DNA of 64,000 bases from Amaricoccus sp. (GTDB taxonomy: Bacteria > Pseudomonadota > Alphaproteobacteria > Rhodobacterales > Rhodobacteraceae). Below the pieces are notes generated by a model. That model saw only the letters and a program-made list of their open reading frames with translations, was not told the DNA's origin and did no database searches. Within the stretch, counting starts at the first letter, position 1; each line of letters opens with the position of its first letter. The DNA lies in NCBI GenBank assembly GCA_046348975.1, contig JAXMDF010000010.1:29013-93012 (forward strand), given 5' to 3'. This document shows, piece by piece, positions 48,763 through 53,146 of the stretch. The position numbers were made by a program, and so were the translations under genes.

Positions 48763-49974
48763 TCAGGCCGCCCTGCGCGGCCGCCGGCGGTTGCGCGGCG
48801 CGGCGACCCGCGGCTTCGGCGCGGCGGCGGGGCGGGCGCGCGCCGGCCCCGGTGCGAGCAGCGTCGTGCGCGTGAGCTTCTCGATCGCGCGCAGCCGCTC
48901 GGTCTCGTCCGGGGCGCAGAGCGTGATCGCGATCCCGTCGGCGCCGTTGCGGCCGGTGCGCCCTATGCGATGTACGTAGCTCTCGGCGGCGTCCGGCAGG
49001 TCGTAGTTGACGACATGCGTCACGCCCGGCACGTCGATGCCGCGGGCGACGATGTCGGTGGCGACCAGCACCCGCACCTCGCCGCCGCGGAAGGCGCCGA
49101 GCGCCCGCTGCCGCGCGTTCTGCGCCTTGTTGCCGTGGATCGCCGCGGCGGCGATGCCGTCCTTCGCGAGGTTCTGCGCCACCCGGTCGGCGCCGCGCTT
49201 GGTGCGGGCGAAGACGATGGCGCGCCGCACCTCGGGATCGCCGAGGATCTGCGCCAGCCGCGCCCGCTTGGCGGCGGTGTCGACGGCCTCGACCCGCTGC
49301 TCGATCCGCTCGATCGTCGTCGCCTGCGGCGCCACCTCGACCCGCACCGCGTCGCGCAGGAAGCTCGCCGCGAGCCCGGCGACGTCGGCCGGCATGGTGG
49401 CGGAGAAGAGTGCGGACTGCCGGCGCGGGTGCAGCGCCGCGACGATCTTCCGCACCGGCTGGATGAAGCCCATGTCGAGCATGCGGTCGGCCTCGTCAAG
49501 CACCACCCAGCGGGTCTGGTCGAGCGCGATCGAGCCATCGTCCATCAAATCCGTCAGCCGCCCGGGCGTCGCGACCACGACGTCGAGCCCGCGCGCCAGC
49601 GCCCGCACCTGCGCGCTCCGCGAAGTGCCGCCGAGCACCAGCAGCGTCGCGAGCCGCGCGCCGCCCGCGAAGCTGCGGAACGCCGCCTCGATCTGCACCG
49701 CGAGCTCGCGGGTCGGCGCGAGCACGAGCGCCCGGCAGGTCTTCGGCGCAGGGCGGCCGCGCAGCTCGAGCAGCTGGTGCAGGATCGGCAGCGCGAAGGC
49801 CGCGGTCTTGCCGGTGCCGGTCTGGGCGATGCCGAGGATGTCGCGCCCCGCGAGCTGCGGCGCGATCGCCTGCGCCTGGATCGGCGTCGGGGCATCGAAG
49901 CCGGCGCGCGCAAGCGCGGCGGTGAGCGGCTCGGCCAGGCCGAAGTCCGCGAAGGTCGTGGTCGTCACGTCCAT
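48763..49974 (-). CDS. DEAD-box RNA helicase (RhlE-like)
   Basis: Q motif PTPIQ, AQTGTGKT, PTRELA, DEAD, SAT, HRIGRTGR, basic C-terminal tail. Confidence 0.95.
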   Translation of the reverse strand: MDVTTTTFADFGLAEPLTAALARAGFDAPTPIQAQAIAPQLAGRDILGIAQTGTGKTAAFALPILHQLLELRGRPAPKTCRALVLAPTRELAVQIEAAFRSFAGGARLATLLVLGGTSRSAQVRALARGLDVVVATPGRLTDLMDDGSIALDQTRWVVLDEADRMLDMGFIQPVRKIVAALHPRRQSALFSATMPADVAGLAASFLRDAVRVEVAPQATTIERIEQRVEAVDTAAKRARLAQILGDPEVRRAIVFARTKRGADRVAQNLAKDGIAAAAIHGNKAQNARQRALGAFRGGEVRVLVATDIVARGIDVPGVTHVVNYDLPDAAESYVHRIGRTGRNGADGIAITLCAPDETERLRAIEKLTRTTLLAPGPARARPAAAPKPRVAAPRNRRRPRRAA

Positions 49975-50221
49975 ACTCCTTCCCGCGCGGCAGGTCGCCG
50001 CGGGGAGATGCGCCTTCGTCAGGCGCAGGTGACGAAAACAATCCGAGGGGTTCGCGATGCCGGAGCCGGGCTCCTTGCGCCATCGCCGCGCAGCCGGGGT
50101 CGTCCCGGCGCACGGCCTACATAGGCGATCTGCTGCACCGCGGCAAGCCATACCGTCGCCCTCCCGATTCGCGCCGGGGCTTTATCCCCGGCCCGGAACC
50201 CGCTAGCTCTGGCGGCAGTGC

Positions 50222-50551
50222 GCGGGCATGGCGAAATCGGTAGACGCAGCGGACTTGCAGGACGAGTGCCCGCGGGGAAACCCGCGGGGTCATAGCCGCT
50301 CAAATTCGGGGAAACCTCACGGGCCATCGATTGCATGGCCGACCGGTGGCGATCCCGAGCCAAGCCCTCCGGCGGAGGGAAGGTGTAGAGACTAGACGGG
50401 CGGGGCCTACAGCCGGATCCGGCCAGGGCCAAGGGATAGTCCAGACCACGAACGCCTCCCGAACGAATCCGGAAGGCGGCGGCGGAAGCCGAAGTGGTAC
50501 GAAAATCCGCTTCCTTCGGGAGTGCCGGTTCGAGCCCGGCTGCCCGCACCA
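50222..50551 (+). tRNA. tRNA-Leu(UAA), intron-containing (exons 50222-50256 and 50502-50551)
   Basis: Acceptor stem GCGGGCA/TGCCCGC plus ACCA, D-arm GCGAAATCGGTAGACGC, anticodon stem GCGGA/TCCGC with spliced loop CTT|AAAA, long variable arm, T-loop GGTTCGAGCC. Confidence 0.93.
50257..50501 (+). ncRNA. Group I self-splicing intron (tRNA/IC3-like), 245 nt, no ORF
   Basis: Inserted after U of the anticodon and ends in G; P1 exon ACTT pairs with intron GAGT (U.G at the splice site); core elements AAATTCGGGGAAAC, GATCCCGAGCC, GTGTAGAGACTAGACGGG, AAGGGATAGTCC. Confidence 0.93.
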
Positions 50552-50620: not shown

Positions 50621-52048
50621 GTGACCAGTCTCACCAGCAGCGAGTTCAAGCTCTCCATATCGCAATACCTGCTCGGCCTGAACTACGACCCCCGCGTCGT
50701 CCTCAGCGTCACTCCCGACGGCTCGACGACCGCGATCCCGCTCAAGGAGCGGACCTCGTCCAACAACGCCGTCATCATCTGCACCAAGACGAAGACCTCG
50801 CTCTCGAAGACCCTGAACGAGGTGGCGCTCCTCAGCCCCTCGACCGGCGTCGCCTTCCCCGGCGCGCTGATCCTCGCCAACGAGCAGCTCATGGACGGCC
50901 AGCCGACGCCGATCTCGCTGCCGCGCGGCACCTGCACGCTGTCGATCGACCTGCCCGGCATGCGCGAGCCCAGCGCGCGGCTCGTCCCGACCGAATCGTC
51001 GGTCCGGGAGTTCGTCAACGCCAAGCTCGAGGCCTGGAACGCCGGCGCCGCCCACGAGGGCTACGTGAACGCGGCCCGCTCGATGCTCAACATCTCGCAG
51101 GCCTTCTCGTCGCAGCAGCTGTCGCTGGAGCTCGGCTTCAACGCCAAGTGGGCGTCGGGCAACGCCTCCGCACAGCTCTCGACCACCTCGAACACCGAGC
51201 GGTCGGTGGTCGTCGCCTACTACAAGCAGGTCTTCTACACCGTGACGATGAACACGCCGGAGAACGCCGCCGACGTCTTCGGCGACGGCGTGACGGCCGA
51301 GAACGCGATGGCGGCCTTCGATGCCAGGAACCCGCCGGCCTATGTCCGCAGCGTCGACTACGGGCGGATCCTGATGGTCAAGATGGAGACCTCGTCGGTC
51401 GACACCTCGGCGAACCTCAAGGGCGCCTTCGAGCACGCGACCTCGGGCGGCGTGACCGTCGGGGGCGAGCTGAAGTCGAAGTACGAGAGCATCGTGCGGA
51501 ACGCGACCTTCACCGTGCTCGCGATCGGCGGCGGCGCCTCTACGCCGGTACAGCTCTTCCACGGCGCGGCCGACGGCGAGATCGCCGGGCTCAAGGAATA
51601 CATCCAGAAGGACGCGACCTACCGCCGCGACAACCCGGGCCTGCCGGTCGCCTACCAGGTGGCGTTCCTGAAGGACAACCGCTTCGCGACCATGGGTTTC
51701 ACCACCGACTACACCGAGACCCAGGCGGTCCGCTACCCGAACGGCTTCGTCCGCGTGCAGCACTCGGGCGCCTACGTCGCGCGCTTCGAAGTCACCTGGA
51801 CCGAGGCCGACGGGCAGGGCGAGTTCAACCAGAACCGCCGCTGGGAGTCGGGCGACAAGACCGCCGGATACTCGCAGCAGGTCGACCTGCCCGGCGACGC
51901 CCGCAACGTCCGGCTGAAGGCCTGGGCCGCGACCGGGCTGATCTGGGACAAGTGGGGCGAGATCTTCAACGTCGCGCTCGAGGGCCCCGACAACAGGACC
52001 TATCGCGCCAAGGGCACGACGCTGAACCGCAGCTGGGACCACGGCTGA
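50621..52048 (+). CDS. Cholesterol-dependent (thiol-activated) cytolysin family protein, 475 aa
   Basis: LNYD, FPGAL, SIDLPG, YKQVFYTV, PPAYVRSVDYGR, IGGG, PGLPVAY; domain 4 HSGAYVARF..W, undecapeptide-like AATGLIWDKWG, GTTL; GGAGGA RBS at 50607-50612. Confidence 0.93.
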   Translation: MTSLTSSEFKLSISQYLLGLNYDPRVVLSVTPDGSTTAIPLKERTSSNNAVIICTKTKTSLSKTLNEVALLSPSTGVAFPGALILANEQLMDGQPTPISLPRGTCTLSIDLPGMREPSARLVPTESSVREFVNAKLEAWNAGAAHEGYVNAARSMLNISQAFSSQQLSLELGFNAKWASGNASAQLSTTSNTERSVVVAYYKQVFYTVTMNTPENAADVFGDGVTAENAMAAFDARNPPAYVRSVDYGRILMVKMETSSVDTSANLKGAFEHATSGGVTVGGELKSKYESIVRNATFTVLAIGGGASTPVQLFHGAADGEIAGLKEYIQKDATYRRDNPGLPVAYQVAFLKDNRFATMGFTTDYTETQAVRYPNGFVRVQHSGAYVARFEVTWTEADGQGEFNQNRRWESGDKTAGYSQQVDLPGDARNVRLKAWAATGLIWDKWGEIFNVALEGPDNRTYRAKGTTLNRSWDHG

Positions 52049-52334: not shown

Positions 52335-52622
52335 ATGACGGAGATGCCCCAAGCTGCCGTAGATGACAACAAGCGCATGAATCTGCGCGTTTCGCCGGAG
52401 ACCAAGGCCAAGCTGGTGCGCGCTGCCGCGCTGCGCAACACCGACTTGACCAACTTCGTGACCCAGTCCGCCTTGCGGGAAGCGGAAGCCGTCATCGAGG
52501 CGGCCGAAGTCGTTCGCCTGTCGGGGCGCGATCACGCGCGGGTGCTTGAGCTGCTGGAAAATCCGCCCAAGCCCAACGCAAGGCTGCGTGCGGCCATCGC
52601 AGCGTTGCCCGACACCCTATGA
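52335..52622 (+). CDS. DUF1778 (TacA/AtaR-like RHH) antitoxin
   Basis: KRMNLRVSPETKAKLVRAAAL, FVTQSALREAEAVI, LENPPKPNARL; the ATG at 52344 is an alternative start. Confidence 0.9.
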   Translation: MTEMPQAAVDDNKRMNLRVSPETKAKLVRAAALRNTDLTNFVTQSALREAEAVIEAAEVVRLSGRDHARVLELLENPPKPNARLRAAIAALPDTL

Positions 52623-53146
52623 CGCTTCCCGCCTGGAAAGAGGAAGCCATCGCGAAATCGCACGATCGTCAGTCCTTCGACTGCGGCGATCCGGCGATGA
52701 ACGACTTCCTCCGGCGCTATGCGCGCCAAAGCCACGAACAGAATGCCTCCAAGACCTTCTGCGCGATCGACGTCGCAACGCCCAATCGCGTCCTCGGCTT
52801 CTACACCATCGCTCCGTCCGCCGTGGCGCACGAGGTCGTGCCGGCGTCAATGACGAAGGGGCTGGCGCAGCACGAGGTTTCGGGATTCAAGCTGGCTCCG
52901 ATCGCAACCGATGTCACCGTCGGCGGTCAGGGCTTGGGCGGGCAACTTCTCGCGGCCGTGGCGCTGCGCTGCCTGCGGATCGCGGCCGAGACCGGCGGCG
53001 TGCTGCTGATAGTCGACGCCAAGGACGAGCGTGCCGCGCAATGGTATGCCGGCTATGGACCCGAGCCGTTGGAAGATAGGCCGCTCACCCTGGTCATGCC
53101 GCTGGTCACCTTTGCCGCCGACCTCAAGGCCAAGGGCCTCCTCTGA
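52619..53146 (+). CDS. GNAT acetyltransferase toxin (TacT/AtaT-like)
   Basis: HDRQSFDCG..MNDFL, GFYTI, GQGLGGQLL, VDAKDERAAQWY; ATGA overlap with the antitoxin. Confidence 0.88.
   Translation: MTLPAWKEEAIAKSHDRQSFDCGDPAMNDFLRRYARQSHEQNASKTFCAIDVATPNRVLGFYTIAPSAVAHEVVPASMTKGLAQHEVSGFKLAPIATDVTVGGQGLGGQLLAAVALRCLRIAAETGGVLLIVDAKDERAAQWYAGYGPEPLEDRPLTLVMPLVTFAADLKAKGLL

What the first reader, a model, noticed from the sequence alone, without database searches (positions are those of the whole stretch)
50222..50551. Group I intron in tRNA-Leu(UAA) of an alphaproteobacterium
Seen: a tRNA split at U^AA by 245 nt that fold as a group I ribozyme: P1 ACTT/GAGT with U.G, P2 CCCGCGGG-GAAA-CCCGCGGG, P3 CCGCTC/GGGCGG, P7 GACTA (50390-50394) / TAGTC (50437-50441), ACCAC/GTGGT near the terminal G, and no homing endonuclease ORF. 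Known: this insertion site is typical of cyanobacterial and plastid trnL(UAA), and tRNA group I introns are only sporadic in proteobacteria. Inference: a laterally acquired, GC-rich and possibly highly stable ribozyme. Decoding of rare UUA codons would depend on splicing if this is the only UAA tRNA. Annotation pipelines often miss such genes.
Basis: partly seen in the sequence, partly recalled or inferred. Interest (0 to 1): 0.8.

Follow-up and report, generated by a model that had tools for sequence, protein, structure and literature searches.

The report
Ordinary intron-split leucine tRNA gene
This alphaproteobacterium's leucine tRNA gene for the rare codon UUA is split by a 245-base group I intron that likely cuts itself out of the RNA; it is real but ordinary, since the same kind of intron sits at the same spot in many related bacteria.

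Summary
Real, but a known class. A 245-nt intron (50257-50501) splits tRNA-Leu(UAA) at U34^A35, and the joined exons give a canonical 85-nt tRNA. Every core helix forms, with the P1 U·G pair, the P7 G-binding pair and the terminal G. Across 56 relatives 96.8% of cells pair and 25 of 59 pairs covary. Rfam RF00028 hits at E=1e-6, but below its gathering score. This is the classical 'Leu.3Ug' IC3 class (Williams 2020). It is patchy but common in Alphaproteobacteria: 15 of 55 genomes of the genus and 23 of 400 others of the class. It is the only UUA-reading tRNA found, and no genome of the genus showed both forms. It sits at the native locus with no integration scar, groups with congeners' introns, and is only 51-55% like cyanobacterial ones. 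So it is likely an old gain, inherited since. At 67% GC it is below the genome's 71%, and its folding is unexceptional. Side results: phage tRNA-Leu genes carry same-site introns, and some longer ones hold HNH genes. The scan noted this intron class before on other DNA (e1-2076968, e1-5257861, e1-070221). Splicing itself is untested.

The parts
50181..50209 (+). Likely promoter of the tRNA gene (TTTATC, 17 nt, TAGCTC); inferred
   Evidence: CTTTAT in 10 of 11 and GCTAG in 11 of 11 type-A genomes at this spacing (read); the E. coli-consensus scan found no site
50222..50256 (+). 5' exon of tRNA-Leu(UAA), ending at U34
   Evidence: identical in all 11 type-A genomes
50257..50501 (+). Group I intron, 245 nt, 67% GC, no ORF of known family, IC3-type
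50253..50267 (+). P1 with the U50256·G50264 wobble at the 5' splice site, extended by G50257-C50263
   Evidence: U·G in 56 of 56 rows; the extension pair forms in 105 of 108 GTDB introns
50269..50288 (+). P2 hairpin with GAAA loop
   Evidence: 6 of 8 pairs change on both sides
50296..50403 (+). P3 pseudoknot arms (50296-50301 / 50398-50403) enclosing P4 (50306-11 / 50353-58), P5, P6 and P6a
   Evidence: Rfam alignment; P3 pair C-G 32 / U-A 24, P5 pair C-G 33 / G-C 23, P4 invariant
50388..50442 (+). P7 (G50390-C50441 = predicted guanosine site) enclosing P8 and P8a (50404-50430)
   Evidence: P7 pairs in 56 of 56 rows, one pair A-U 46 / G-C 10; P8 3 of 4 pairs covary
50445..50501 (+). P9.0, variable P9.1, P9 hairpin with GNRA loop (50480-50491), terminal G50501
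50502..50551 (+). 3' exon of tRNA-Leu(UAA), from A35 to the encoded CCA

Best explanation
The cell's native tRNA-Leu(UAA) gene is split at U34^A35 by an ORF-less group I intron of the classical IC3 tRNA class, which likely splices itself out of the precursor to give the only UUA-reading tRNA found in the assembly. Shown in sequence: exons, splice-site U·G, P7 G-C pair, terminal G and all core helices. Inferred from the established group I mechanism: free guanosine binds at P7 and attacks after U50256; G50501 then takes the same pocket, and the 3'-OH of U34 attacks after it, joining U34 to A35. P1 is short and a P10 pairing looks weak here, so the anticodon stem likely aligns the exons. The intron is likely a neutral passenger, kept intact because the tRNA is needed. 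It was likely gained once in an ancestor of this part of the genus and inherited since. Between lineages such introns likely move by replacement of the whole tRNA gene.
For: Exons join to a canonical tRNA. RF00028 E=1.3e-6. Covariation in P2, P3, P5, P6a, P7, P8, P9.1 and P9. Williams 2020 lists Leu.3Ug among four classical classes, all IC3. Sole copy: 15 of 55 genus genomes have the intron, 26 of 55 an intron-less gene (24, 2 more), 14 neither, none both. In four type-A genomes at 91-92% completeness, 0 of 29 CTTAAAA sites is a tRNA-Leu. UUA is used in real genes, for example transketolase codon 382. Native locus: the neighbours upstream here also lie within 1.5 kb upstream in 20 of 24 intron-less genes and 5 of 14 other intron-bearing ones, and no half-tRNA scar was found. 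Inheritance: the 11 type-A introns plus one outsider form a 99/97 clade; all 10 type-A hosts with rpoB fall in a 100/100 clade of 14; their mature tRNAs match ours at 80-84 positions. Whole-gene replacement: congener G022's exons match those of another family (G051) at 84 of 86 but its intron-less near kin at 72-73 of 86; exon and intron identity correlate over 44 alphaproteobacterial rows (rho 0.39, 0 of 999 permutations).
Against: No splicing data: the RNA runs held only relatives, and the one exon-to-exon joint had another organism's exon letters and could come from an intron-less gene. The Rfam score is under the gathering cut-off (32.8 < 50). The assembly is 83% complete and lacks several other tRNAs, including Leu(CAA), so a second gene cannot be excluded. 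Three intron-less and one type-B genome sit inside the host clade, which needs losses or replacements; type-A hosts as one clade is neither found nor rejected (p-AU 0.077). The intron tree rests on about 220 columns: one clade of all 15 genus introns (p 0.159) and type A joined with cyanobacteria (p 0.372) are not rejected. Shared ancestry alone also makes exon and intron identity correlate.
Confidence: 0.88

Rival explanations
1. The split gene is a replacement tRNA carried by an integrated island that cut the native intron-less gene, as earlier scan notes reported for other alphaproteobacteria.
For: The DNA downstream varies: the flanks fall into many unrelated groups across the genus. Here a cytolysin-family gene and a TacA/TacT-like pair follow, with a mild GC dip to 65-68%.
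Against: No 5' or 3' half of any tRNA-Leu(UAA) elsewhere in the assembly. No integrase was recognised among the neighbouring ORFs (8 scanned; the rest read by eye). The promoter-like motif and exons are shared by 11 genomes with different downstream DNA.
Confidence: 0.04
2. This lineage gained the intron recently by homing, driven by an HNH endonuclease from a phage or another bacterium, and the ORF was then lost.
For: Same-site introns with HNH ORFs exist: 10 of 10 hand-picked long loci are tRNA-Leu(UAA) genes with 678-761-nt introns holding such ORFs (one rests on unpublished genome G465). 8 of 8 ORFs scanned hit HNH or HNH_3 at E<0.01, 5 above the cut-off. 103 of 120 viral loci are short same-site introns.
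Against: No phage row lies in the 85-row clade that holds this intron. A pattern for this intron type found 0 viral contigs. One such HNH protein had no match in 55 of 55 genus genomes (single query, no positive control). None of the HNH-like loci carries an alphaproteobacterial title. Type-A introns are 81-93% alike, which means old divergence.
Confidence: 0.04
3. The intron cannot splice alone and needs a host protein, or it serves as a switch that limits UUA decoding under some conditions.
For: The base before the wobble G is C here, so it cannot pair with the first A of the 3' exon; 93 of 108 GTDB introns have U there. UUA is very rare: 105 of 95,615 Leu codons, in 96 of 2,524 ORFs. A DEAD-box helicase gene lies next to the tRNA.
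Against: The core is invariant and fully paired. Of 20 UUA-bearing ORFs scanned, those named are mixed housekeeping genes, not one regulon. The helicase neighbour was seen in only 2 of 15 intron-bearing genomes. 26 congeners have no intron.
Confidence: 0.04

Closest known systems
[quoted passage not shown]
   Same: Same host tRNA, same site after U34, U at -1, terminal G, no ORF, size in the usual range.
   Different: Only 51-55% identical to 14 cyanobacterial introns against 59-83% to 30 other alphaproteobacterial ones. P7 reads GACUA/UAGUC where the cyanobacterial rows have GACUC. P1 is extended by G-C, which leaves little room for P10.
Proteobacterial tRNA-Leu(UAA) introns: Beggiatoaceae and Thiomargarita (PMC4853749, passages); the proteobacterial Leu.3Cg type (Williams 2020); a gammaproteobacterial case (Vepritskiy et al. 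2002, recalled, not held)
   Same: Same tRNA interrupted in Proteobacteria, and reported missing from automatic annotation.
   Different: Different class of host; ours has U, not C, at -1. Williams's per-phylum table is an image I could not see, so alphaproteobacterial Leu.3Ug counts in print were not checked.
Azoarcus pre-tRNA-Ile(CAU) intron (IC3; PMC13168695, passages)
   Same: Compact proteobacterial tRNA intron with the same helix set (P2-P9, P9.0) and no ORF.
   Different: Different tRNA and site; ours has longer P5 and an extra variable P9.1 arm. No sequence comparison was run. The thermostability of the Azoarcus RNA cannot be carried over (z = -1.14).

Membership tests
Group I intron | U at -1 in a U·G wobble in P1 | tested here: met
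   U50256·G50264; 56 of 56 rows
Group I intron | Terminal G before the 3' splice site, exons join in register | tested here: met
   G50501; joined exons = 85-nt tRNA-Leu(taa)
Group I intron | P3-P7 pseudoknot core with the G-C guanosine-binding pair; P4-P6 domain | tested here: met
   two-sided changes in P3, P5, P6a, P7, P8
Group I intron | Guanosine-dependent self-splicing | not testable with these tools
   No RNA of this organism found
Rfam RF00028 Intron_gpI | Score at or above the gathering threshold (50 bits) | tested here: not met
   32.8 bits, model positions 50-157 of 253, E=1.3e-6. Williams 2020 notes the model has no bacterial seeds and worked from 18-20 bits.
Leu.3Ug class (Williams 2020) | tRNA-Leu interrupted after the third anticodon-loop base (CUU/...g/AAAA), U at -1, terminal G | tested here: met
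Subgroup IC3 | Assignment by a subgroup-specific covariance model | not testable with these tools
   No subgroup models held. Assignment rests on Williams's statement that the four classical tRNA classes are IC3 and on the compact anatomy.
Mobile (homing) group I intron | Intron-encoded or adjacent homing endonuclease | tested here: not met
   0 of 4 frames or ORFs hit Pfam; the related HNH query found nothing in G000
Island-borne replacement tRNA | Fragments of a cut native tRNA flanking the element | tested here: not met
   No tRNA-Leu(UAA) half elsewhere in the 83%-complete assembly

The most novel reading that the evidence does not exclude
This ORF-less intron is the settled end of a large homing system aimed at tRNA-Leu(UAA) that is still active. 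Phage tRNA-Leu genes carry same-site introns in large numbers, some of them, and some in bacteria, hold an HNH endonuclease in the P1 or P6 loop, and phage-delivered endonucleases would explain the patchy spread through Alphaproteobacteria. A 2014 review stated that all phage introns then known lay in protein genes.
Probability: 0.2. Interest if true: 0.5.

Novelty: new member of a known kind. Interest (0 to 1): 0.2.

Why it matters
Modestly. It restores a tRNA that standard annotation drops, so the genome does have a reader for UUA. It also corrects the textbook picture of the tRNA-Leu(UAA) intron as a cyanobacterial and plastid trait: about 6% of sampled alphaproteobacterial genomes match it. 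The genus, with 15 intron-bearing and 26 intron-less genomes and two intron types, is a handy natural set for studying gain, loss and whole-gene replacement. The phage-borne and HNH-bearing versions found on the way are more interesting than this locus.

Tried and rejected
Rfam at gathering threshold: no match in the window. Default ARAGORN: missed the gene. ARAGORN with introns on the genome gave one more Leu(taa) call with a 1,920-nt insert (C17) among many implausible split calls; I took it as noise, as BLAST of both exons finds only this locus. Exceptional stability: rejected, 28 of 200 shuffles fold as well. Island replacement: no scar; the best other hit, 17 nt on the opposite strand about 15 kb away, matched other genomes' tRNA ends. 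G015's apparent intron-less junction is not a tRNA. RNA evidence: five runs with shares of 0.05-0.06; four were laid, all contigs from relatives, no use for or against. Phage carriers of this intron type: 0 viral contigs with the type-specific pattern; 3 partial, 71-74% matches in cultured-phage records. GcrA as a class marker: not found. The first rpoB tree had a very long outgroup; it was rebuilt without G038, G015 and G065, and G066, G010 and G030 had no rpoB match; only 30 genomes were searched for rpoB. Intron tree: L264 left out as identical to L158, identical rows collapsed, phage rows thinned from 83 to 31. Papers not held: Vepritskiy 2002, Paquin 1999, Paquin 1997, Rudi 2002, Ikawa 2000. 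No paper on introns in phage tRNA-Leu or on HNH genes in tRNA-Leu introns surfaced in the listings; the library lacks most subscription journals, so this does not show absence from print.

Full report
Observation. The sequence is as described. The 5' exon runs 50222-50256, the insert 50257-50501 (245 nt, 67% GC, last base G) and the 3' exon 50502-50551. Default ARAGORN and Rfam at gathering threshold both miss it. At E-value threshold Rfam Intron_gpI matches 50296-50403 with 32.8 bits, E=1.3e-6, the only match in the genome. The host is an alphaproteobacterium by its two-piece tmRNA and ChpT; GcrA was not found. The assembly is 3.69 Mb, 71% GC, 83% complete.

Anatomy. All 13 helices I drew pair in this sequence: P1 with U50256·G50264, P2, P3, P4, P5, P6, P6a, P7 with the G50390-C50441 pair, P8, P8a, P9.0, P9.1 and P9. 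On a MAFFT alignment of 56 same-site introns (56 of 98 candidate rows, those from the genus or titled Alphaproteobacteria, three of these left out), 96.8% of cells pair and 25 of 59 pairs change on both sides, against 87.1% and 17.6 in shuffles (0 of 500 as high) and 31-45% with slid partners. Examples: P3 C-G 32 / U-A 24; P7 A-U 46 / G-C 10; P5 C-G 33 / G-C 23. P4 is invariant and so says nothing either way. Kinship inflates such counts, and the structure was taken from this sequence. Overall folding is not special (z = -1.14). None of four overlapping frames or ORFs hits Pfam. One small variant: the first intron base pairs with the base before the wobble G (105 of 108 GTDB introns); here that pair is G-C, whereas 93 of 108 have U there, able to pair with the first A of the 3' exon. 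P10 therefore looks weak in this intron.

Is it the only UUA reader? In this assembly yes: 0 of 212 YTTAAR sites form an intron-less tRNA-Leu(UAA), and both exons BLAST only to this locus. The assembly lacks other tRNAs too, so I checked the genus. Of 55 genomes, 15 hold the intron, 26 an intron-less gene (24; G008 and G028), 14 neither, none both. In four type-A genomes of 91-92% completeness, 0 of 29 CTTAAAA sites is a tRNA-Leu. UUA is rare, 105 of 95,615 Leu codons in 96 of 2,524 filtered ORFs; 36 ORFs have it beyond codon 60. I scanned 20 of those 36: named ones include transketolase (above cut-off) and, below cut-off, fatty-acid oxidation, TrkH and acyl-CoA ligase families. Splicing is therefore likely needed for normal growth.

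How common. 108 of 120 loci were recovered as short split tRNA-Leu(UAA) genes. By my reading of record titles, 45 are Alphaproteobacteria, 17 Acidobacteria, 14 Cyanobacteria, 12 Gammaproteobacteria and 20 others; the pattern's fixed gaps bias these shares. In an even draw from the class, 23 of 400 other genomes match (not each checked as a tRNA). So the intron is patchy but not rare.

History. In a 154-row tree the intron lies in a clade of 11 genus introns (type A) plus one outsider, inside an 85-row, mostly alphaproteobacterial clade with no cyanobacterial or phage row. A 60-row tree gives type A 99/97; identity to our intron is 81-93% within type A, 72-79% to the genus's four type-B introns, 59-83% to other alphaproteobacteria and 51-55% to cyanobacteria. 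AU tests on this short alignment reject neither one clade of all genus introns (p 0.159) nor type A with cyanobacteria (p 0.372). On rpoB (24 genomes), the 10 type-A hosts fall in a 100/100 clade of 14 that also holds three intron-less genomes and one type-B; all intron-bearing hosts as one clade is rejected (p 4e-6), type A alone is not (p 0.077). The gene sits at the native locus: the cinA-like gene and the antiporter gene upstream here (the name cvrA is my reading, not a call result) lie within 1.5 kb upstream of 20 of 24 intron-less genes and 5 of 14 other intron-bearing ones; G066 shares our DEAD-box helicase neighbour, and the other 8 show neither within that short flank. Exons travel with introns: G022's mature tRNA matches one from another family at 84 of 86 bases but its intron-less near kin at 72-73. 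The simplest reading is an old gain of type A with later losses or replacements, and separate arrivals of type B by whole-gene replacement. An earlier scan note suggested island-borne replacement tRNAs; I found no half-tRNA scar here.

Mechanism. Shown: the sequence elements above. Inferred from the established two-step group I pathway (described in Williams 2020 and Hausner 2014): guanosine binds at P7 and cleaves after U34, the terminal G replaces it, and U34 is joined to A35. That the anticodon stem helps is inferred from the short P1 and from the title of Zaug et al. 1993, seen in a reference list. Untested: splicing itself. The RNA runs held only relatives.

Comparison with what is known. 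Williams 2020 (bioRxiv 10.1101/2020.01.27.920355; whole text read, table and figures are images I could not see, supplements closed) names Leu.3Ug as one of four classical classes, all IC3, together 3,453 of 5,292 introns, and reports 72 Leu.3Cg introns in Proteobacteria. PMC4853749 (passages) reports an intron-split tRNA-Leu(TAA), missing from annotation, in Thiomargarita and a Beggiatoaceae genome. [quoted passage not shown] PMC3984707 (passages and section 11) states that phage introns then known were all in protein genes. Also seen: PMC11835236 (part 1 of 4), PMC12350094 (passages), PMC13168695 (passages). Vepritskiy 2002 and Paquin 1999 are recalled only. Williams's table may already list alphaproteobacterial Leu.3Ug counts.

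Side results. Among the 29 viral and GTDB loci not recovered, many had long inserts. Ten picked by eye are tRNA-Leu(UAA) genes with 678-761-nt introns holding an ORF in the P1 or P6 loop, sense or antisense. One of the ten, L343, comes from unpublished genome G465; without it the count is 9 of 9. All 8 ORFs scanned hit HNH models, 5 above cut-off. These do not link to our lineage: no phage row in its clade, 0 viral contigs of its type, no HNH match in the genus with one query. Earlier scan notes report similar things.

Verdict. [quoted passage not shown] Interest 0.2.

Noticed in passing
window 50621-52048 (+): Intact gene of the thiol-activated (cholesterol-dependent) cytolysin family (PF01289 E=2e-86, PF17440), 70 nt after the tRNA with no terminator found between. 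Seen in the 1.5-kb flank only here and in G066 (98% identical). Looks like a pore-forming toxin homologue in an environmental alphaproteobacterium; no obvious signal peptide by eye.
   Followed up: partly
window 52335-53146 (+): TacA-family antitoxin (PF08681) followed by a probable GNAT toxin (no Pfam hit; named from context), with lower GC3 (0.79-0.81) than neighbours.
   Followed up: partly
   Followed up: partly
L343-L352, e.g. L347:1006-1470 (-), L352:1698-2174 (-): tRNA-Leu(UAA) introns of 678-761 nt with an HNH-family ORF in the P1 or P6 loop, in either orientation, in five bacteria and five viral contigs. L343 is from unpublished G465.
   Followed up: partly
L011, L013-L016; L012; L017, L019: Related introns in other tRNAs of the same order or class: best read as tRNA-Lys(UUU) after base 35, tRNA-Lys(UUU) after base 34, and tRNA-Thr(GGU) after base 36 (alternative cuts were also returned). 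The six same-order genomes show two or more intron-like matches each.
   Followed up: partly
L342:2001-2299 (NC_004464.2): 1,270 plasmid records hold a match, the best about 74% alike over the whole split tRNA-Leu; in the one record opened it is unannotated and lies near aac(3)-IId. Already noted by the scan (e1-070221).
   Followed up: partly
window 48763-50151 (-): A DEAD-box helicase gene sits head to head with the tRNA gene here and in G066 only; a role in splicing is possible but unsupported.
   Followed up: partly
NC_048021.1:41895-42116 (hit H26): Gordonia phage Daredevil has an unannotated 71% match to the 5' exon and intron core: a possible intron-split tRNA in a cultured phage.
   Followed up: no
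L310 (G020:C29): Congener G020 has a second, divergent intron-less tRNA-Leu(UAA) in AT-rich DNA.
   Followed up: no
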